This document shows, one piece after another, positions 186-49,729 of a DNA stretch of 64,000 nucleotides. The translations under genes were made by a program, and so were the position numbers. The DNA is from an uncultured Fibrobacter sp. (lineage in GTDB: Bacteria > Fibrobacterota > Fibrobacteria > Fibrobacterales > Fibrobacteraceae), in contig CAMKTL010000011.1 of assembly GCA_946415675.1 (NCBI GenBank), forward strand, positions 89 to 64,088. The letters run 5' to 3'. How positions within the stretch are numbered: position 1 is the stretch's first letter; each line of letters begins with the position of its first letter. The notes beneath the pieces are model-generated. The model was not told the origin of the DNA, ran no database searches, and worked only from the letters and a program-made list of their open reading frames with translations.

Positions 186-491
186 ATTTTTAGTGGACAC
201 TAGTGAATCAATATTTTAATTCACCAGCCAAATATATAGTTTGTTTTAATGACAATTTGTCAACAATAATAAAAACAACTTGTTTTCGACACTTCGTAAA
301 GCAAATATTACATAAAATAGTCTTATTTTATGTATGTCAAATCCCGTTATTTTAAAATACCGTCCCTCCCAAAAAAACTTACAAACTTTTAATCAACAAA
401 ATACGCCCTATTTATAATGGATAAAAAATTTAAAAGCGGTTCATCTACAAACTTTTTCTACATTTATTTTAAATCATCAAGGATTACCCCA

Positions 492-41490: not shown

Positions 41491-43374
41491 ATGAAAATTT
41501 TAAATAAATTTATAGATTTTGCAAATTTTGCAAACAACCGTTTGCAAAAAGCTTCATTTTGCATTTTATGGTTTGCAGCGGTAGCCTTTTCGCAAGAGTT
41601 CAACATGAACAACATGCCCCCTCCCGAAGTAGGCATGCAGTATTCCGTAGGCACCTTGCAAAAGGGTTCAAATGTTATCGTTGACATTGTCATTCCTGAC
41701 AACTGGCACGTGAACGCCAACATCGCCGCCGACGAATTTCTGAAGCCTTCCTCCATCGAGATTTCTGCAAATGGCGTCCACTTTGGAGAGCCCAAGTGGC
41801 CAGAGCCCATCAAGGAATACAGCGAGGCACTTGACCTCGAAAACCTTGTTTTCAGGGGACATTTCCAAGTCACGCTCCCCGTCGAAGGTGTCGATGCCGA
41901 TTACGACAGTCTGACGACACAGGCGACGTTCCACTACCAGGCTTGCGACAATTCCATTTGCCTCGCGCCTTCGCAAGTCACGTTCGGCTTGGGAGCCCTC
42001 GGCTTCAACAAAAAAAGTTCCATGCAGCCGGGATTAAAAAAAAACGATAATGAAACCGGTTCGAGCGAAGACGTTCCGCTAAACGGCCCCGTCAATGATT
42101 CGCCTATGGAAGGCGGACTCGCCGGCACATTGGTTCTACTTTTGTCTGCTCTGCTCGGTGGGTTAATTTTGAACCTCATGCCATGCGTTTTGCCGGTGCT
42201 CTCGCTCAAGCTGTTTAGCCTCATCAAGCAGGCTGGCGAAAGCCGCGGACGTCTGCTTGCACTGGGAACATCGACAACGGTTGGCATCCTCGCCAGTTTC
42301 TGGCTCTTGGCCGCCATCGTCGCCGCGGTCAAGGCGGGCGGCGGAAACGCCGGTTGGGGCATGCAGTTCCAAAGTGCGGGATTCATCGCGTTCATGGTCG
42401 TCATCCTGAGCGCCTTTGCCATGAGCTTTTTCGGAGTCTTTGAAATCTGGCTTCCCGGAAGCGCCACCACCAAGATGGACAGCGCCGGACGCAAGCAGGG
42501 ACTCGTTGGTGCATTTTTCACGGGAGCGCTCCTGGTACTCCTCAGCACGCCCTGCTCTGCACCGTTCCTCGGCACCGCCATGGGTTTTGCCTTTACCGCC
42601 TCGACACCAGTACTCTTCCTGTTCTTTACCGCAGCAGGCGTAGGACTTGCGCTCCCCTACATGCTCGTGAGCGCATTCCCGAGCGTCCTGAAAGTTTTCC
42701 CGAAACCGGGCGCCTGGATGGTGACGCTCCAGAAAGTCATGGGCGTTCTGCTACTCGGCACAGTCGCATGGCTTTTGTGGGTCGTGCGCGAACAGGCCGG
42801 CAACTACGGAGTCGCCATTTTCGCAGTCGTTGCGTTCCTGAGCATCATTTTCAGTTTCGCCATCGGAAAAATCGCCCCGCCAGGAGTTGCGTTTATCCAT
42901 GAAGTCGTGGCCGTCGTTGGTTCTATCGTTTTGCTCGCTGCATTCTGGTTTGCATTCGCGTCTCCAAAATACGAAGCCGAAGTCGATGCCATCTTCGAAG
43001 CAAAAGCAACACAATTAATCACAGAAGACGGTTGGTTCCGCTATACACCAGAACTTATCGATAACCTCGCCAAATCCGGGCACACCGTGTTTATCGACGT
43101 TACTGCAGACTGGTGCCTCACCTGCAAGGCGAACGAAACGGCCATTTTGAACCGTGAAGATTTCCGCCGCGCCATGGACAGTCTGAAAGTCGCACGAGTC
43201 AAGGCCGACTGGACCCGCGAAACACCCGAAGTCACCGCGCTCCTCAAGAGCATGGGCAAGTCGGGAGTTCCCGCCTACGCCATCTACCCTGCAGGGGATG
43301 CTTCAAAACAAATTGTGCTGCCCGAACTGCTCACGACAAATGCGATCGTGGAAAAAATCGTTGGCAGTAGGTAG
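41491..43374 (+). CDS. dsbD: DsbD-type thiol:disulfide interchange protein
   Basis: N-domain WHVNA...YQACDNSIC, TM motifs LMPCVLP and STPCSAPFLG, thioredoxin TADWCLTCK. The start is uncertain. Confidence 0.9.
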   Translation: MKILNKFIDFANFANNRLQKASFCILWFAAVAFSQEFNMNNMPPPEVGMQYSVGTLQKGSNVIVDIVIPDNWHVNANIAADEFLKPSSIEISANGVHFGEPKWPEPIKEYSEALDLENLVFRGHFQVTLPVEGVDADYDSLTTQATFHYQACDNSICLAPSQVTFGLGALGFNKKSSMQPGLKKNDNETGSSEDVPLNGPVNDSPMEGGLAGTLVLLLSALLGGLILNLMPCVLPVLSLKLFSLIKQAGESRGRLLALGTSTTVGILASFWLLAAIVAAVKAGGGNAGWGMQFQSAGFIAFMVVILSAFAMSFFGVFEIWLPGSATTKMDSAGRKQGLVGAFFTGALLVLLSTPCSAPFLGTAMGFAFTASTPVLFLFFTAAGVGLALPYMLVSAFPSVLKVFPKPGAWMVTLQKVMGVLLLGTVAWLLWVVREQAGNYGVAIFAVVAFLSIIFSFAIGKIAPPGVAFIHEVVAVVGSIVLLAAFWFAFASPKYEAEVDAIFEAKATQLITEDGWFRYTPELIDNLAKSGHTVFIDVTADWCLTCKANETAILNREDFRRAMDSLKVARVKADWTRETPEVTALLKSMGKSGVPAYAIYPAGDASKQIVLPELLTTNAIVEKIVGSR

Positions 43375-44924: not shown

Positions 44925-45359
44925 TATTCAGTAAACAGTGGTTAGTGGTTAGTAAACAGCGGATAAGGAGAATATCCGCAAACTGTTTCCACAGACAATA
45001 ATAAAAATTTACACCCTGAAATTCAATAGGTTTCGCCATACAAAGTGTCTATTTGTCTTTTTCGTCACATTACATTTTTTGTCAAACTCGCTACCGGCCC
45101 TGATTAATTCTATAGCAAGCGACACAAAAAATTGTCATCCGGAATCTGTTATGTACAATATGCACTGAATTCAATAGAAACGAACAATGTCAAAACGAAC
45201 ATGCATTATTTTTTAATTCTTTAGTTTTAAAGAAATAAGTTCATTTTACATAGTTATTTCACTAAATTCAATGGAATCATTTCTTTCACTATGCAAAAAA
45301 CACCCCGACCCATACGGGTCGAGGCGCTTGGTGTTTGGAGTGTTTAATGACAGTTTATA

Positions 45360-46673
45360 TTAGAAGTTCTTGCACTGGCCTTTCCACTTGCCACGTTCGC
45401 CAACAATCGGCCCATCAATATACTTGCCGCTGTTGCCCACAAAATCCGCTTTACGGAAGTCTTCGCCACCGAGATGCCAACGCATCCAGGCAACTGTCGC
45501 AGCCATGCCGCCCCACGGGCCGGAACCATGACCCCAGCCACATTCACCCTGCTGGCATTCGTTGCCCTGACCGCCAGTCATCTTGATAAGGCAGGCCGGA
45601 GCCTTGACCCCGTTGTTGTTGTAGTCCGCTTCGGCATTGGGGCGTTCCATGCCGCCTTCGCCATAGACGATGCCTATCGTCTTGTCGGTGCCAACGCGAG
45701 ACATGGCCGTATGGCCAAGGTCACCGCTATTGTTGAGCATGGCGGTAATAACGCGCTTATCTTGAATGACCATTTGTTCGGATTCGAGGCCGCCCATGGA
45801 GTGGCCAGAGCAACCTACTTTCGTCATGTCGAGTTTCTGGTAAAGCGGATCGTTCGGGTCATTGTTCTTCTTTTCGAGCCAATCGAGGGCGGGCTTGCCC
45901 TGTGACGCATTACCCGGAGATTCGCGGAGCGCAATCACAACGAAGCCGTGAGAAGCGAGACGACGGATGATTCCACCGTAAGCACCCGGTTCCGTGCCGC
46001 CACCCGGGCCCCACACGACAACAGCATGTTTCCGGTCGCTAGAAAGCTGTTCCGGATAAGCAAGGATTCCACCGCCATCGTGGCCGGTGCGTTCAATATA
46101 CTTGACTCGCATCTGGTCCTTCGTTTCGTCCTTACCTTCGGCGAGGAAGACACCTTGCGGCTTCGGGGCTTCACTGGAACTAGATTCAACAGCCTTTTCG
46201 CTAGAGCTGGAAGCTGGAGCCGCGGCACTGGAAGCAGGCGTGGTAGCGCTCGATGCCGGAGCTGCAACACTGCTGGATTCCGGATTCGGCGTGACTGTCG
46301 CACTGGATGTAGGCGTCACAGCAGCACTGGATTCCGGATTTGGCGTTACACTGGCGCTAGATTCAGCTGTCGGCGTGACCGAGGCGCTGGATGTTGGAAG
46401 CGGATTTGTTCCAGGACCACAAGCATCGGGCAAACTGGATGCCAAACAAGATTCGTCGCCACCCGCTTGCTGATTGGTTTCGCCACCCTGCTGAACCGTT
46501 TCGCTAGAAGCCGGCTGTGCAGAACCCGCAGATTCTGGCGAAACAACTTCGCCAGCGCTGGATGAAAGGCCCGTTGCATAATTGTTTATCGCGGAAGTGA
46601 CGGCGTCATCACCGCAATTCAGGAAGACCAGCGAACTGGCCAATACCATCGTTTTTAAGAGTTTAGATTTCAT
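45360..46673 (-). CDS. Lipoprotein: Ser/Ala/Pro/Thr linker + PETase/cutinase-like alpha/beta-hydrolase (copy 1)
   Basis: FLNC lipobox; RLASHGFVV, LDMTKVGCSGHSMGG, GHGSG. Confidence 0.85.
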   Translation of the reverse strand: MKSKLLKTMVLASSLVFLNCGDDAVTSAINNYATGLSSSAGEVVSPESAGSAQPASSETVQQGGETNQQAGGDESCLASSLPDACGPGTNPLPTSSASVTPTAESSASVTPNPESSAAVTPTSSATVTPNPESSSVAAPASSATTPASSAAAPASSSSEKAVESSSSEAPKPQGVFLAEGKDETKDQMRVKYIERTGHDGGGILAYPEQLSSDRKHAVVVWGPGGGTEPGAYGGIIRRLASHGFVVIALRESPGNASQGKPALDWLEKKNNDPNDPLYQKLDMTKVGCSGHSMGGLESEQMVIQDKRVITAMLNNSGDLGHTAMSRVGTDKTIGIVYGEGGMERPNAEADYNNNGVKAPACLIKMTGGQGNECQQGECGWGHGSGPWGGMAATVAWMRWHLGGEDFRKADFVGNSGKYIDGPIVGERGKWKGQCKNF

Positions 46674-46753
46674 TTTGTTCTCCTATTAACCTTAACCTGA
46701 CTAGAAATTACCTAAAAAAGCCGTTGATTTACCACTGTTTAACCAAAGTCTTA

Positions 46754-46768
46754 TGGACAAAAAATCCA
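46754..46768. promoter_or_regulatory. TGGA-N7-TCCA palindrome upstream of copy 1
   Basis: TTATGGACAAAAAATCCAAA. Confidence 0.55.
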
Positions 46769-46917
46769 AAATAATTAATTTATTCATAATATATTTGCAC
46801 CTTATTTCGACCAGTTCACAACAAGTCGCAAGAACGATGAAGAAAACACAAAAAGAAAACGCCTCGACTGAAACAATCGAGACGCCTAGTTGTTGGAGTG
46901 TGGATATTGATTATAAA

Positions 46918-48219
46918 TTATTTAAAGTTCTTACACTGCGTTTTCCATTTTCCCTGTTTGCCAATGATGTTGCCATCAATGTACTTGCCGCTAGAACCCA
47001 CAAAATCAGCCTTGCGGAAATCTTCGCCGCCAAGATGCCAACGCATCCAGGAAATCGTCGCGGCCATGCCGTCCCAAGAGCCGGAACCGTGACCGTAGCC
47101 GCCTTCGCTATTACGCGGACCGCCCGTCATTTCGATAAGGCAAGCCGGAGCCTTCACGCCAGCGTTGTTGTAATCGTTCTTGGCGTTGTCTTTTTCCATG
47201 CCGACTTCGCCGAAGAGAATCGCAATCGTCCTGTCTGTTGCAACTTTGTTCGCACCGGCGCCGTTCCAGTCGCCACTGTTATTGAGGAACGCCGTCAGAA
47301 CGCGTTTGTCCTTAATGACAGCCTGCTCAGATTCCAAGCCGCCCATGGAGTGCCCAGAACAGCCAACTGTATTCATGTCGAGCTTGCCAAAAAGCGGGCT
47401 GTTCTGATCTTTGTTCTGTTTATCGAGCCAATCAAGAGCCTTGATAGCTTGCGATGCATCACCCGGAGATTCCTTGAGCGCAATCACCACAAAGCCATGA
47501 GAAGCGAGACGACGGATCATGCCTTCATAAGCGCCAGGTTCAGTGCCGCCACCCGGCCCCCAAACCACAATGCCATGCTTTTGTGTCGAAGAAAGCTGTT
47601 TCGGATACGAGAGAATTCCACCGCCATCCCAGCCAGTGCGAGTCTTGTATTCCACCTGCATCTGGTCCTTTTCTTCTTCCTTACCGCTGGCGAGGAAAAT
47701 GCCCTTCGGCGCTTCACTAGAAGACGAGACAACAGTTTCTGCACTGGACTTCGGAGTTTCCACGCTGGAACTTGATTTTACGGAAGCCGAACTTGTAGGC
47801 TTTGCAGTTTCCGAACTTGCAGGCGTTGCCACTTCGGCACTCGATGCAGGTACAGCAGCGCTAGAAGTCGGCGTAACATCGGCACTGGAAGCCGGGGTTG
47901 CGACATCTGCACTAGATGCAGGATTTGCGACATCCGTGCTTGATGCAGGATTTAGAGCGTCTGCACTCGAAGTCGGAAGCGGATTTGTCCCAGGCCCGCA
48001 CGCATCAGGCAAGCTAGATGCCACGCAAGGGTTGCTCCAAGGGTCATTCGGATTAACCGAAGCCGAGCTCAATGCCGGATTAGCCGCATCGGAACTCGAT
48101 GCGATACCCGGAAGGCCGCCACCTTGATTGATATTTGGTGCTGTGAGGGCATCGTCCCCACAATTCATGAAGGCAAGAGAACTCGCCACAATCATGCATT
48201 TCAAGATTTTTGATTTCAT
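46918..48219 (-). CDS. Lipoprotein PETase/cutinase-like hydrolase (copy 2)
   Basis: FMNC lipobox; RLASHGFVV, SPLFGKLD, GHSMGG, GHGSG. Confidence 0.85.
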   Translation of the reverse strand: MKSKILKCMIVASSLAFMNCGDDALTAPNINQGGGLPGIASSSDAANPALSSASVNPNDPWSNPCVASSLPDACGPGTNPLPTSSADALNPASSTDVANPASSADVATPASSADVTPTSSAAVPASSAEVATPASSETAKPTSSASVKSSSSVETPKSSAETVVSSSSEAPKGIFLASGKEEEKDQMQVEYKTRTGWDGGGILSYPKQLSSTQKHGIVVWGPGGGTEPGAYEGMIRRLASHGFVVIALKESPGDASQAIKALDWLDKQNKDQNSPLFGKLDMNTVGCSGHSMGGLESEQAVIKDKRVLTAFLNNSGDWNGAGANKVATDRTIAILFGEVGMEKDNAKNDYNNAGVKAPACLIEMTGGPRNSEGGYGHGSGSWDGMAATISWMRWHLGGEDFRKADFVGSSGKYIDGNIIGKQGKWKTQCKNFK

Positions 48220-48313
48220 ATAGTACTCCTCTTAACCAAAACCTTGCACCCTTGCACCATTTTTAAAATAAACAGAAAATAAAACACAAGACCTTGACAG
48301 GAAAAAACTTTTA

Positions 48314-48328
48314 TGGACAAAAAATCCA
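48314..48328. promoter_or_regulatory. TGGA-N7-TCCA palindrome upstream of copy 2
   Basis: TTATGGACAAAAAATCCAAA, identical to the 46751-46770 site. Confidence 0.55.
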
Positions 48329-48387
48329 AATCAGAAAACGCCTCGACCGAATCGATCGAGGCGCTTGGTTGTTGGAGTGTGGATGTT

Positions 48388-49596
48388 TTAAAAATTCTTA
48401 CACTGGGTTTTCCATTTGCCTTGGTGGCCTATAATGTTTCCGTCAATATACTTGCCTGTCGATCCGACAAAATCAGCCTTGCGGAAGTCTTCACCGCCAA
48501 TCTGCCAACGCATCCATGCAATCGTTGCCGCCATGCCGTCCCACGAACCGGAACCATGACCGTAGCCACCCTCGGAATTCTTCGGGCCACCCGTCATTTC
48601 GATGAGGCAGGACTTGACTTTCGTCGCGGTTTCGTAATCCTTGATGGCGTTCGGCTTTTCCATACCGACTTCGCCATAAAGCACCGCAGCCGTTTTACCT
48701 TCCGGGAAATTCTTGATGACACCGCCGTTCTTGTCGCCGCTATTGTTGAGGAACGCTGTAAACACGCGCTTATCCTTGATTGCCGCCTGCTCGGATTCCA
48801 AACCACCCATAGAGTGACCAGAACAGCCCACCTTCGTCAATTCCAGCTTTTGATAGAACAAATCGTTGGAATTCTTGTTCTTGTTTTCGAGCCAGTCAAT
48901 AGCCTTGATAGCCTGCGATGCATCGCCCGGAGATACGCTTAGTGCTATCACCACGAAACCGTGAGAAGCCAAACGACGAATCATGCCGCCGTACGCGCCC
49001 GGTTCGGTGCCGCCACCCGGCCCCCACACGACAACGCCATGTTTTTGCGTACTGGAAAGCTGTTTCGGATAGGCCAGAATTCCTTTGCCATCCCAGCCGG
49101 TATTTTCTTTATACTCCACCTGTAGCACGTCTTTTTCTTCTTCCTTGCTTTCAGGAAGGAAAATGCCTACCGGTTTCGGCGCTTCGCTAGAAGAAGAGAC
49201 TTCGCTAGAGGAACTAGCCGGCTTTACCGCCTCACTGGAACTTGATGCAGGAACCGCCGCACTCGATGCTGGCGCACCCGCGCTGGATGCAGGAGCATCA
49301 CTCGAAGCAGGCCCAACATCGGCACTGGAAACTGGATTCTGGACATCAGCACTAGAGGCCGGTGCATCCGCGCTAGACGCAGGAACCGAGACGTCCGCAC
49401 TCGAACTCGGGACAAACACGTCCGGAGCCTCGACAGAAGAAGAACTCAATGTCGGATTTGCGGCATCGGAACTCGACACGATACCCGGAAGTTCACTATT
49501 CGGATTGAAATTGGGTGCCGTAGAGGCATCATCTCCACAATTTATAAAGGCAAGGGCGCCAGTAAATACAGCGCACCTCAATAATCCTGATTTCAT
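48388..49596 (-). CDS. Lipoprotein PETase/cutinase-like hydrolase (copy 3)
   Basis: FINC lipobox; RLASHGFVV, GHSMGG, GHGSG. Confidence 0.85.
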   Translation of the reverse strand: MKSGLLRCAVFTGALAFINCGDDASTAPNFNPNSELPGIVSSSDAANPTLSSSSVEAPDVFVPSSSADVSVPASSADAPASSADVQNPVSSADVGPASSDAPASSAGAPASSAAVPASSSSEAVKPASSSSEVSSSSEAPKPVGIFLPESKEEEKDVLQVEYKENTGWDGKGILAYPKQLSSTQKHGVVVWGPGGGTEPGAYGGMIRRLASHGFVVIALSVSPGDASQAIKAIDWLENKNKNSNDLFYQKLELTKVGCSGHSMGGLESEQAAIKDKRVFTAFLNNSGDKNGGVIKNFPEGKTAAVLYGEVGMEKPNAIKDYETATKVKSCLIEMTGGPKNSEGGYGHGSGSWDGMAATIAWMRWQIGGEDFRKADFVGSTGKYIDGNIIGHQGKWKTQCKNF

Positions 49597-49714
49597 TCCC
49601 TGAACTCCTCTTCCTCATCACAAAAACAAATATCCCATACACCGCCCATACACGATGCTATTCATAAAATAGACCTAAAAACGGCTTGTGACTAGCATCA
49701 CAGCTCACCTTTTA

Positions 49715-49729
49715 TGGATAAAAAATCCA
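49715..49729. promoter_or_regulatory. TGGA-N7-TCCA palindrome upstream of copy 3
   Basis: TTATGGATAAAAAATCCAAG. Confidence 0.55.

What the first reader, a model, noticed from the sequence alone, without database searches (positions are those of the whole stretch)
45360..49596. Tandem array of three lipid-anchored PETase/cutinase-like hydrolases on long flexible linkers
The catalytic domains carry RLASHGFVV (identical to the IsPETase/Thermobifida cutinase segment), P(L)xGKLD/LYQKLD and GHSMGG. Each follows a lipobox and a ~120-160 aa Ser/Ala/Pro-rich stalk and has its own operator and terminator. At the position where PETases have the catalytic Asp (CEND), all three read GE[GV]G-ME, so the acid may be a shifted Glu. 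Copy 1 has an extra C-x4-C loop just before the His. Inference: surface-tethered cutin/suberin or polyester esterases that open plant cuticle, potentially new anaerobe-derived polyesterases.
Basis: partly seen in the sequence, partly recalled or inferred. Interest (0 to 1): 0.75.

Follow-up and report, generated by a model that had tools for sequence, protein, structure and literature searches.

The report
Tethered PETase-fold esterase trio in Fibrobacter
A rumen Fibrobacter carries three neighbouring, separately transcribed genes for probable lipid-anchored esterases of the cutinase/PETase fold whose usual catalytic aspartate is gone and apparently replaced by a nearby glutamate; their nearest relatives sit on xylanases, so they more likely strip ester groups from plant hemicellulose than digest cuticle or plastic.

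Summary
Three minus-strand paralogues (45360-46673, 46918-48219, 48388-49596) each encode a signal peptide with a lipobox-like x-N-C, a 121-152 aa disordered acidic Ser/Ala/Pro stalk, and a 260-aa PF12740 (PETase-like) alpha/beta hydrolase. Each gene has its own conserved upstream element and its own strong terminator, and sheep-rumen metatranscriptome contigs cover each gene separately.

Closest solved structures are the "type III" PETases (HaloPETase1, dsPETase05, P. mendocina lipase; TM 0.75-0.80).

The canonical Asp is replaced by Gly, with a one-residue deletion. A Glu two residues downstream is present in all 73 family genes examined, so the likely triad is Ser-His-Glu. The His sits on a hypervariable inserted loop, and both PET "aromatic clamp" positions are Gly and Asn.

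The nearest relatives that keep the Asp (34-40% identical) are fused to GH10 or GH11 xylanases, CE1-type esterases, CBM6/CBM3/ricin-B modules and dockerins in cellulosomal clostridia. That favours a hemicellulose (acetyl or feruloyl) esterase role over cutin or PET.

The family is essentially Fibrobacter-specific, with 1-3 copies per locus, and databases already auto-annotate it as PET-hydrolase-like. I rate it a new variant of a known kind, of moderate interest. The substrate, lipidation and acid residue are all untested.

The parts
45360..46673 (-). Copy 1 CDS (437 aa). Signal and lipobox are residues 1-20, with Cys20 at 46614-46616. The stalk is residues 21-171 (46161-46613). The catalytic domain is residues 172-437 (45363-46160). 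Key residues: Ser292 (45798-45800); Gly341 at the canonical Asp position (45651-45653); Glu343, the proposed acid (45645-45647); His382 (45528-45530). The His loop is 16 residues long and carries the Cys373/Cys378 pair.
46918..48219 (-). Copy 2 CDS (433 aa). Cys20 is at 48160-48162. The stalk is residues 21-172 (47704-48159). The catalytic domain is residues 173-433 (46921-47703). Key residues: Ser291 (47347-47349); Gly340 (47200-47202); Glu342 (47194-47196); His377 (47089-47091). The His loop is 12 residues long and has no Cys pair.
48388..49596 (-). Copy 3 CDS (402 aa). Cys20 is at 49537-49539. The stalk is residues 21-141 (49174-49536) and lacks the C-x8-C island found in copies 1 and 2. 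The catalytic domain is residues 142-402 (48391-49173). Key residues: Ser262; Gly311; Glu313 (48658-48660); His347 (48556-48558).
49712..49729 (-). Conserved upstream element TGGATTTTTTATCCATAA of copy 3. It is an imperfect palindrome (TGGA-N7-TCCA) whose 15-nt core ends 118 nt before the ATG. A TATTTT box follows at 49666-49671.
48311..48328 (-). Conserved upstream element TGGATTTTTTGTCCATAA of copy 2. Its 15-nt core ends 94 nt before the ATG. A TATTTT box follows at 48265-48270.
46751..46768 (-). Conserved upstream element TGGATTTTTTGTCCATAA of copy 1. Its 15-nt core ends 80 nt before the ATG. A TAATTT box follows at 46705-46710.
48336..48366 (-). Intrinsic terminator of copy 3: 14-bp stem followed by a U run.
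   Evidence: -26.0 kcal/mol, z -5.15. RNA contigs end at 48371.
46857..46887 (-). Intrinsic terminator of copy 2: 14-bp stem followed by a U run.
   Evidence: -20.2 kcal/mol, z -4.66. RNA contigs end at 46899 or 46885 in four runs.
45298..45329 (-). Intrinsic terminator of copy 1: 14-bp stem followed by UUUUUU.
   Evidence: -24.9 kcal/mol, z -4.77. The RNA contig ends at 45330.

Best explanation
WHAT IT IS. The window comes from a rumen Fibrobacter. It is 93-96% identical in nucleotides to MAG RGIG10017 from yak reticulum. It carries an old three-fold tandem duplication of a complete gene cassette: upstream element, core promoter, gene and terminator.

THE PROTEIN. Each gene is transcribed on its own. 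Each encodes (i) a Sec signal ending in a lipobox-like x-N-C followed by G-D-D, (ii) a 121-152 aa disordered, acidic Ser/Ala/Pro stalk, and (iii) a 260-aa alpha/beta hydrolase of the PF12740 cutinase/PETase-like family.

PROPOSED MECHANISM (inferred). After export the Cys is lipidated. The acidic +3/+4 residues resemble the lipoprotein export signal of Bacteroidetes. The enzyme would therefore hang from the outer membrane (cell surface or vesicles) on a long flexible tether and sweep over insoluble plant fibre.

CATALYSIS. The nucleophile is the Ser of GHSMGG and the base is the His of GHGSG. The canonical Asp after strand beta7 has been replaced by Gly, with a one-residue deletion. An invariant Glu two residues downstream, at the start of the next helix, most likely takes over as the acid, giving a Ser-His-Glu triad.

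PARALOGUE DIFFERENCES. The His sits on an inserted, hypervariable loop next to the active site. This loop differs between the paralogues: 12 residues in copies 2 and 3, and 16 residues with a Cys pair in copy 1. It probably tunes substrate specificity.

LIKELY SUBSTRATE (inferred). The most likely natural substrates are ester substituents of plant cell-wall hemicellulose (acetyl or feruloyl groups on xylan). Removing them would expose cellulose for this cellulose specialist. Promiscuous activity on soluble or aliphatic polyesters is possible. Efficient PET binding of the classical kind is unlikely.
For: FOLD AND FAMILY
- PF12740 scores above threshold in all three proteins.
- The AF2 model of the copy 2 domain has pLDDT 84.9 and pTM 0.88.
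- Best Foldseek hits are dsPETase05, HaloPETase1 and P. mendocina lipase, with TM 0.75-0.80. The best sequence hits are the same entries, E 1e-16 to 1e-19.

DISORDERED STALK
- Residues 1-170 of copy 1 have pLDDT below 50 and no secondary structure.

LIPOBOX
- N-C is conserved in at least 90% of homologues.
- Orthologues in other species read LVSC, LTSC or LAAC, which are canonical lipoboxes.
- The residues after the Cys (G/S/D, then D/E, D/E) resemble the Bacteroidetes signals SDDDD and K-(D/E)2 (PMC5080379).

TRIAD
- HHalign against the sister group that keeps the Asp (probability 100, E 1e-50) puts the invariant Asp on Gly340, a one-residue gap after it, and the Ala of D-x-L-A on Glu342. His aligns to His, with an 8-residue insertion before it.
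- All 12 clusters at 50% identity that have Gly at this position and keep the catalytic Ser have Glu at +2. Glu at -2 and the Asp of NNSGD both vary.
- The Glu at +2 is present in 73 of 73 genes from 57 loci. Glu at -2 is Asn in two genes.

SELECTION
- dN/dS is 0.15-0.18 in the catalytic domain, with dS above 1.

SEPARATE TRANSCRIPTION AND EXPRESSION
- Rumen metatranscriptome contigs span 45330-46679, 46899-48246 and 48371-49638. None crosses an intergenic region in run X24.
- 52 of 55 occurrences of the upstream element in 654 kb of related loci lie upstream of a family gene on the same strand. A TAttTT box follows about 42 nt downstream.

SUBSTRATE
- Relatives 34-40% identical along the whole domain occur as GH11-dockerin-X, GH10-dockerin-X, PF00756(CE1-type)-CBM6-dockerin-X, CBM6-dockerin-X, CBM3-X and ricinB-X, for example in Acetivibrio alkalicellulosi.
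- This is the architecture in which CE4 or CE1 esterases sit in cellulosomal xylanases (XynA of C. cellulovorans, cited in PMC3655837).
- The clamp positions are Gly (equivalent to Thr88 of HaloPETase1 and Tyr87 of IsPETase) and Asn (equivalent to Tyr180 and Trp185). This rests on the alignment and the residue equivalences in PMC12442448.
Against: - No biochemical data exist for any member, as far as the paper searches show.
- The Fibrobacter proteins carry no CBM, and their neighbours are housekeeping genes (folE, a GT4 glycosyltransferase, dsbD, a nitroreductase). Genomic context therefore says nothing about substrate.
- The domain-fusion evidence comes from relatives only 34-40% identical that still have the Asp.
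- The coordinates of the model could not be inspected. Whether Glu342 reaches His377 is untested, and the His loop is poorly modelled (pLDDT about 60).
- Pairwise alignments of the acid loop shift by 1-3 residues depending on the method.
- Asn at lipobox -1 fails the strict [GAS]-C consensus. Other lipoproteins in the same window have A or G there.
- The closest solved structures are real PET or polyester hydrolases, so polyesterase activity cannot be excluded.
Confidence: 0.5

Rival explanations
1. One reading: the three enzymes are surface-tethered cutin, suberin or polyester depolymerases that open the plant cuticle. They would be new PETase-type polyesterases from an anaerobe.
For: - All the nearest solved structures and sequences are cutinases or PET hydrolases.
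- The nearest are P. mendocina cutinase/lipase 2FX5 and HaloPETase1, which itself lacks the full aromatic clamp yet degrades PET (PMC12442448).
- The nucleophile elbow GHSMGG is shared with LCC and Thermobifida-type enzymes.
- The genes are expressed in the rumen, where cuticle is a barrier to digestion (own knowledge).
Against: - Both clamp positions are small or polar (Gly, Asn), and the surrounding loops are GGGTE and NNSGD.
- The sister group is attached to xylanases, xylan- or cellulose-binding CBMs and CE1-type esterases.
- No literature links Fibrobacter to cutinase or PETase activity.
- The acid loop and the His loop are both remodelled relative to every characterised PETase.
Confidence: 0.2
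2. They are lipases, or esterases for small or lipid esters: galactolipids, phospholipids, chlorophyll-phytol or wax esters. They would act on plant membrane lipids rather than on polymers.
For: - There are weak sub-threshold matches to PAF acetylhydrolase (E 0.0016-0.01) and Chlorophyllase (E 0.0008-0.04).
- Structural neighbours include the Streptomyces exfoliatus and P. mendocina 'lipases'.
Against: - All these Pfam matches are below their gathering scores, whereas PF12740 is above its own.
- No lid or hydrophobic pocket features were seen.
- The fusion partners of relatives are carbohydrate-directed.
- Fibrobacter is not known as lipolytic (own knowledge).
Confidence: 0.1
3. They are catalytically dead or weak Ser-His dyad proteins. 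Having lost the acid, they would serve as fibre-binding adhesins on a stalk.
For: - The canonical Asp is absent in every member.
- One remote cluster, P0134, has also lost the Ser and His.
Against: - Ser, His, the oxyanion-loop glycines and the Glu at +2 are invariant in 73 of 73 genes.
- dN/dS is 0.15-0.18.
- The correlated Asp-to-Gly and Ala-to-Glu exchange looks compensatory.
Confidence: 0.05
4. Rival on localisation only. The proteins are periplasm-facing outer- or inner-membrane lipoproteins, or are simply secreted after signal peptidase I cleavage. They would not be surface-exposed.
For: - Asn at -1 is outside the classical lipobox consensus, and other lipoproteins in the window use A or G.
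- The Bacteroidales homologues have an ordinary signal-peptidase-I-type signal and no stalk.
- The lipoprotein export signal has only been demonstrated in Bacteroidetes.
Against: - The Cys is nearly invariant, and S or A replaces N at -1 in orthologues.
- Acidic residues at +3 and +4 are conserved.
- A 120-150 aa tether makes little sense in the periplasm for an enzyme whose relatives act on insoluble cell-wall polymers.
Confidence: 0.2

Closest known systems
Type III PETases / P. mendocina cutinase group (HaloPETase1 9HL5, dsPETase05 9K0H, 9W68, PmC 2FX5)
   Same: - Best sequence matches (E 1e-16 to 1e-19) and best structural matches (TM 0.75-0.80).
- Same PF12740 fold.
- Shared motifs: W-G-x-G oxyanion loop, ASHGFVV, and a G-H-S-x-G-G elbow.
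- No aromatic residue at the IsPETase Tyr87 position.
   Different: - Only 21-24% identity over the structural alignment.
- The catalytic Asp (D206) is replaced by Gly, with a deletion; a Glu at +2 is proposed as the acid.
- Asn replaces Tyr180 (equivalent to Trp185).
- The His loop is 8-17 residues longer.
- Met rather than Gln follows the Ser.
- The Cys pattern differs.
- The N-terminus has a lipobox plus a long stalk instead of a plain signal peptide.
- The host is an anaerobic gut bacterium.
Uncharacterised PF12740 modules of cellulosomal or CBM-linked enzymes (for example the Acetivibrio alkalicellulosi CBM6-dockerin protein P0145; GH11-dockerin-X P0287; GH10-dockerin-X P0148)
   Same: - Closest relatives outside the family: 34-40% identity end to end, HHalign probability 100.
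- Same C-terminal W-M-R-W-H-L-G-G-E...K-N-[FW] tail.
- Same Gly at the clamp position. P0145 also shares the GHGSG His motif.
- Host organisms are anaerobic plant-fibre degraders.
   Different: - They keep the canonical Asp (D-x-L-A) and a short His loop.
- They are targeted by dockerins or CBMs, or fused to xylanases and CE1-type esterases, rather than by a lipid anchor and stalk.
- None is biochemically characterised as far as could be found.
Classical PET hydrolases and cutinases, types I and II (LCC, Thermobifida cutinases, IsPETase)
   Same: - Same fold (TM about 0.66-0.74).
- Shared GHSMGG elbow and RLASHGFVV-type strand.
   Different: - No Asp at the C-E-N-D position.
- No Tyr/Phe plus Trp clamp.
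- No active-site disulfide of the IsPETase type.
- Remodelled loops after beta7 and beta8.
Surface lipoproteins of Bacteroidetes that carry a lipoprotein export signal (SusD-like proteins, SiaC constructs)
   Same: - A Cys at +1 followed by a small or polar residue and two acidic residues (C-G-D-D, C-S-D-D, C-D-D-S).
- Fibrobacterota and Bacteroidota belong to the same FCB group.
   Different: - The signal has not been shown to work in Fibrobacter.
- Asn at -1 is atypical.
- No Sus-like or PUL context.

Membership tests
Pfam PF12740 (PET hydrolase / cutinase-like alpha/beta hydrolases) | Profile match above the curated gathering score | tested here: met
   41.0, 44.5 and 54.5 bits against a cut-off of 28 for the three proteins.
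Pfam PF12740 (PET hydrolase / cutinase-like alpha/beta hydrolases) | Alpha/beta-hydrolase fold that superposes on solved members | tested here: met
   AF2 model with pLDDT 84.9. Foldseek TM 0.65-0.80 to 50 polyesterase, cutinase or lipase chains.
Pfam PF12740 (PET hydrolase / cutinase-like alpha/beta hydrolases) | Nucleophile elbow G-[HW]-S-x-G-G after strand beta5 | tested here: met
   GHSMGG is invariant in 120 of 120 homologues and in all loci.
Pfam PF12740 (PET hydrolase / cutinase-like alpha/beta hydrolases) | Catalytic Asp in the loop after strand beta7 | tested here: not met
   The canonical Asp aligns to Gly (HHalign; HMMER). No member of the family has Asp there.
Pfam PF12740 (PET hydrolase / cutinase-like alpha/beta hydrolases) | Catalytic His after strand beta8 | tested here: met
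   The invariant His of GHGSG aligns to the invariant His of the sister group, after an 8-residue insertion.
Functional PETases (types I, II, III) | Aromatic residues of subsite I (IsPETase Tyr87 and Trp185; in type III only Tyr180) | tested here: not met
   Gly at the Thr88/Tyr87 position and Asn at the Tyr180/Trp185 position. This rests on the alignment and the residue equivalences in PMC12442448.
Functional PETases (types I, II, III) | Measured hydrolysis of PET, BHET or PCL | not testable with these tools
   This needs an enzyme assay.
Bacterial lipoproteins (signal peptidase II substrates) | Lipobox [LVI][ASTVI][GAS]-C after a positively charged n-region and a hydrophobic h-region | tested here: inconclusive
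   The n-region, h-region and an invariant Cys20 are present. Position -1 is Asn in this window (F-[LMI]-N-C), which is outside the strict consensus. Orthologues have LVSC, LTSC or LAAC.
Surface-exposed lipoproteins with a Bacteroidetes-type lipoprotein export signal | Polar or small residue at +2 and two acidic residues at +3/+4; surface exposure demonstrated | tested here: inconclusive
   The sequence motif C-G-D-D is present and conserved (criteria from PMC5080379). Exposure cannot be tested here, and the signal is unproven in Fibrobacterota.
Chlorophyllase (PF07224) / dienelactone hydrolase (PF01738) | Profile match above the gathering score | tested here: not met
   Chlorophyllase scores 13-19 bits against a cut-off of 26. 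DLH was not reported at all.
Carbohydrate esterases acting on xylan (functional class) | Physical or genomic linkage to xylanases or xylan-binding modules; activity on acetylated or feruloylated xylan | tested here: inconclusive
   Linkage is met for relatives at 34-40% identity (GH10, GH11, CBM6, PF00756, dockerin). It is not met for the Fibrobacter genes themselves, whose neighbours are housekeeping genes. Activity cannot be tested here.

The most novel reading that the evidence does not exclude
The Fibrobacter enzymes, together with the dockerin- and xylanase-linked relatives, would form an unrecognised carbohydrate-esterase family built on the PETase/cutinase scaffold. The Fibrobacter branch would have relocated its catalytic acid (Asp to Gly, with a new Glu on the following helix) and grown a hypervariable, partly disulfide-stapled His loop. 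That would give a set of surface-tethered paralogues with different specificities. They could include real plant-polyester (cutin or suberin) or synthetic-polyester activity under strictly anaerobic conditions.
Probability: 0.3. Interest if true: 0.65.

Novelty: new variant of a known kind. Interest (0 to 1): 0.45.

Why it matters
Fibrobacter is a principal cellulose degrader of the rumen, and how it strips non-cellulosic material from fibre is only partly known. These genes are conserved, multi-copy and expressed in vivo. They encode tethered esterases of a fold that is not in the usual carbohydrate-esterase catalogues, so they could be a missing part of that machinery.

For enzymology, the family offers a natural experiment in relocating the acid within the intensively engineered PETase scaffold. 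It also offers a naturally variable loop next to the active site.

For plastics work, it widens the sequence space of PETase-like enzymes to strict anaerobes. The missing aromatic clamp argues against high PET activity.

Tried and rejected
- NCBIfam gave only sub-threshold hits, for example BHET hydrolase BdeA at 26 bits against a cut-off of 520.
- Asp of NNSGD (after beta6) and Glu at -2 (the E of GE.G) were considered as the acid. Both were rejected because they vary within the family (A/S, and N/R/L respectively), while Glu at +2 never does. Glu205 in the His loop was rejected because the loop is deleted in several clusters.
- Triad distances in the AF2 models could not be measured, because coordinates are not exposed.
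- Literature searches for Fibrobacter with PETase, cutinase, chlorophyllase or polyester hydrolase, and for dockerin with PF12740, found nothing on these proteins.
- The sigma-70 consensus scan found no convincing promoter upstream of the genes. A TAttTT box about 42 nt after the upstream element is conserved instead.
- I first assumed the window was the same assembly as L002. It is only 93-96% identical in nucleotides.
- RNA contig ends were not treated as exact transcript ends. Logan contigs also break at strain variation.
- S85 locus tags could not be obtained, so published S85 proteomes and transcriptomes could not be consulted for these genes.

Full report
**1. Observation**

ORF listing finds three minus-strand ORFs at exactly the reported coordinates: copy 1 at 45360-46673 (437 aa), copy 2 at 46918-48219 (433 aa) and copy 3 at 48388-49596 (402 aa).

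They align along their whole length. Identity is 59-66% overall and 68-77% in the C-terminal 260 residues.

Every quoted motif is present:
- RLASHGFVV and GHSMGG in all three.
- LYQKLD in copy 1, LFGKLD in copy 2 and FYQKLE in copy 3.
- GEGGME in copy 1 and GEVGME in copies 2 and 3.
- GHGSG in all three.
- A copy-1-specific Cys373-x4-Cys378 insertion just before the His.

The N-termini read MKS-K/G-L-L-K..., then a hydrophobic stretch, then [LMI]-N-C20-G-D-D.

The following 151, 152 and 121 residues are 24-31% Ser, 18-20% Ala and 11-12% Pro. They are acidic and almost free of hydrophobic residues. AlphaFold2 on full-length copy 1 gives pLDDT below 50 and no secondary structure for residues 1-170, while the C-terminal domain is confident.

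**2. Organism and family**

The region is 93-96% identical in nucleotides to a MAG of Fibrobacter sp. (RGIG10017, yak reticulum). It is the same or a sister species, not the same assembly. DNA runs that hold the sequence come from sheep, bovine and other gut metagenomes.

More than 1000 homologues exist in the 90%-clustered protein collection. The named ones are all Fibrobacter. They are labelled alpha/beta hydrolase, esterase, S9 peptidase or 'PET hydrolase/cutinase-like domain-containing protein'.

A pattern-based scan of one genome per species returned 53 Fibrobacter or Fibrobacteraceae loci and four Bacteroidales or Paludibacteraceae loci. The latter are about 55% identical. They have an ordinary signal peptide and lack both lipobox and stalk.

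Copy number per locus is 1 in 43 loci, 2 in 12 and 3 in 2. In Fibrobacter sp. UWB2 the same site (folE, esterases, GT4 glycosyltransferase, dsbD) holds two copies. The window's neighbours are the same housekeeping genes.

The paralogues are old and under purifying selection. dS exceeds 1, and dN/dS is 0.15-0.18 in the catalytic domain.

**3. Fold and nearest known proteins**

All three proteins exceed the Pfam gathering score for PF12740 (PETase-like). Chlorophyllase, PAF acetylhydrolase and generic hydrolase models stay below threshold.

The best sequence matches in the PDB are 9HL5, 9W68 and 9K0H, then 2FX5, the P. mendocina lipase/cutinase. 9HL5 is HaloPETase1, the founding 'type III PETase' (PMC12442448).

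An AlphaFold2 model of the copy 2 domain has pLDDT 84.9 and pTM 0.88. It matches these same entries best (TM 0.75-0.80). The next 45 hits are all polyester hydrolases, cutinases or the S. exfoliatus lipase.

That criterion is not met, so the fold assignment stands.

**4. The catalytic acid**

In the HMMER alignment to HaloPETase1, Asp206 falls on the second Gly of GE[GV]G. Pairwise alignments of this loop shift by a few residues between methods, so I built a profile of the nearest relatives that still have the Asp (A5) and compared profiles.

The result has probability 100, E 1e-50 and covers the domain end to end. G-E-L-D-T-L-A of the relatives aligns with G-E-V-G-(gap)-M-E of the family. This shows three things:
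- The canonical Asp corresponds to Gly (Gly340 in copy 2).
- One residue is deleted directly after it.
- The Ala of the D-x-L-A motif corresponds to Glu342.

Covariation agrees. All 12 clusters at 50% identity that have Gly at this position and keep the catalytic Ser have Glu at +2. Relatives that keep the Asp mostly have Ala there. The other candidates vary within the family:
- The Glu at -2, which corresponds to the E of C-E-N-D in PETases, is N, R or L in some clusters.
- The Asp of NNSGD after strand beta6 is A or S in some clusters.
- The Glu inside the His loop is lost where that loop is shorter.

In 73 genes from 57 loci the Glu at +2 is never replaced, whereas the Glu at -2 is Asn in two genes.

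In the models the Glu is the first residue of the helix that follows the beta7 loop. I therefore propose a Ser291-His377-Glu342 triad in copy 2. The equivalents are S292/H382/E343 in copy 1 and S262/H347/E313 in copy 2's neighbour, copy 3.

**5. Other active-site differences**

The His lies on an inserted loop. Between the end of beta8 and the His there are 12 residues in copies 2 and 3 and 16 in copy 1. HaloPETase1 has about 4, and the sister group has 8 fewer than copy 2.

Across the family this loop has 6, 12-13, 16 or 21-22 residues. All 37 versions of 16 or more residues carry a Cys pair. The loop is the least confident part of both models.

It is the main systematic difference between the paralogue lineages. 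It is the obvious candidate for a specificity-determining flap.

Using the residue equivalences in the HaloPETase1 paper, the position of IsPETase Tyr87 (HaloPETase1 Thr88) is Gly. The position of Trp185 (Tyr180) is Asn. Neither aromatic residue of the PET-binding clamp is present, and the neighbouring loops (GGGTE, NNSGD) are polar.

**6. Substrate**

An exhaustive search of 50%-identity representatives shows a small core family: 26 clusters at E below 1e-30. It then grades into relatives that keep the Asp.

Those relatives are strikingly modular:
- GH10-dockerin-X (P0148) and GH11-dockerin-X (P0287).
- PF00756 (CE1-type esterase)-CBM6-dockerin-X (P0286) and PF00756-dockerin-X (P0291).
- CBM6-dockerin-X (P0145, from Acetivibrio alkalicellulosi) and dockerin-X.
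- CBM3-X, and ricin-B lectin-X.
- A BD-FAE fusion.

The esterase module of P0287 aligns with the window's domain from residue 8 to the last residue, at 34% identity and E 2e-40.

'Xylanase-dockerin-esterase' is the classical layout of cellulosomal xylanases whose second domain de-esterifies xylan. An example is C. cellulovorans XynA with a NodB domain (cited in PMC3655837).

This is guilt by association at 34-40% identity, not proof. It is nevertheless the only substrate-related evidence available, and it points to hemicellulose esters. It also fits the ecology of Fibrobacter, which removes hemicellulose to reach cellulose (own knowledge).

Thermobifida cutinases are also reported as acetyl-xylan esterases (own knowledge, not checked here). 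The two activities are therefore not mutually exclusive on this scaffold.

**7. Export and tethering**

The Cys and the preceding Asn are conserved in at least 90% of homologues. Asn at -1 is outside the strict lipobox consensus. Four other likely lipoproteins in the window have Ala or Gly there.

Orthologues in other Fibrobacter species read ...LVSC...LTSC or ...LAAC, which are canonical lipoboxes. This supports lipidation of this Cys.

The residues after the Cys (G/S/D, then D/E, D/E) resemble the lipoprotein export signal that drives surface exposure in Bacteroidetes: SDDDD, SDDFE and K-(D/E)2 (PMC5080379).

Surface tethering is therefore plausible but inferred by analogy from a sister phylum.

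**8. Regulation and expression**

All three terminators are 14-bp hairpins followed by U runs, with z-scores of -4.7 to -5.2.

Upstream of each gene lies TGGATTTTTTRTCCATAA. It occurs three times in 64 kb against 0.05 expected. In 654 kb of related loci, 52 of 55 occurrences (at most one mismatch) lie on the coding strand within 400 nt upstream of a family gene. 48 of 73 genes have it, at a median of 82 nt before the ATG.

An alignment of 55 instances shows a second conserved block, aggTAttTT, about 42 nt downstream. This may be the -10/-7 element, which would put the palindrome around -55 to -75. That is the position of an activator site or upstream promoter element rather than a classical operator.

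Sheep-rumen metatranscriptome contigs cover the genes separately. In run X24 they span 45330-46679, 46899-48246 and 48371-49638, and they stop at the terminators. Other runs give the same picture.

All three genes are thus expressed in vivo and appear monocistronic. Contig depth was highest for copy 2. Logan contigs are a poor measure of abundance, and their ends are not exact RNA ends.

**9. Verdict**

This is a real, conserved, expressed gene family: probable lipoprotein-tethered serine esterases with the cutinase/PETase fold.

The functional inference of cutin, suberin or PET activity is not supported by anything beyond fold membership. The relatives' domain architecture and the missing aromatic clamp weaken it. 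A role as hemicellulose esterases is more likely, at roughly 45-50%. Cutin or polyester activity stands at about 20%.

Databases already label these proteins as PET-hydrolase-like, so the family as such is not new. What is new:
- The relocated acid.
- The hypervariable His loop.
- The lipid-plus-stalk tether.
- The dedicated cis-element.
- The link to xylanase-borne relatives.

I rate it a new variant of a known kind, with interest 0.45.

Noticed in passing
window 46400-46460 (copy 1) and 47990-48050 (copy 2): The stalks of copies 1 and 2, and of many orthologues, hold a conserved island: C-[LV]-A-S-S-L-P-D-A-C-G-P-G-T-N-P-L-P-T-S-S. It has two Cys eight residues apart. Copy 3 lacks it. AF2 gives a short helix there, with pLDDT of only 50-57. 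It may be a small disulfide loop or a recognition site in an otherwise disordered tether.
   Followed up: partly
window 48391 / 49710 (RNA runs X24, X25): A metatranscriptome contig joins 49710 to 48391 and skips the 1318 bases of copy 3. Another contig diverges from the window upstream of 49729. This may be a co-resident strain with a two-copy array, or an assembly artefact. The shorter side of the joint is only 18-20 nt.
   Followed up: no
L040 5391/5413, L041 5397/5419, L051 5394/5416: In three Fibrobacter MAGs the upstream palindrome is present twice, 22 nt apart, before a single-copy family gene.
   Followed up: no
L008 2979-4199 and L009 2105-3343: The second copies in these loci have a very short His loop (EGADWG) and read G-N-N-G-M-E in the acid loop. 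The Glu at -2 is lost and the Glu at +2 is kept. They are natural variants useful for testing which Glu is catalytic.
   Followed up: partly
L056 5360-5830 and L057 5339-5815: In the Bacteroidales and Paludibacteraceae MAGs the homologue directly follows, and in L057 overlaps by one base, a roughly 157-aa secreted ORF. That ORF's C-terminus looks like a type IX secretion sorting domain (...GVYVVKSDRKTIKIIK). It has no Pfam hit. In L056 a 980-aa leucine-rich-repeat-like protein lies upstream.
   Followed up: no
window 41491-43374 (+) and L001 12450-14258: A DsbD-type thiol:disulfide interchange protein is conserved two genes away from the esterase array in both this window and UWB2. This could be coincidence, or it could be relevant to the Cys-rich catalytic domains.
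   Followed up: no
window 415-432 (-): This is the only other near-match to the upstream element in the window (TAAATTTTTTATCCATTA, 3 mismatches). It lies at the start of an ORF at 417-884. It is probably chance.
   Followed up: no
L004 6880 and L006 6963: Copies of the upstream element occur without an intact family gene directly downstream. They may be remnants of lost array members.
   Followed up: no
P0134 (50%-identity representative): This relative of the family has lost the Ser (GHS becomes AHD), the His and the Glu. It is a probable pseudo-enzyme offshoot.
   Followed up: no
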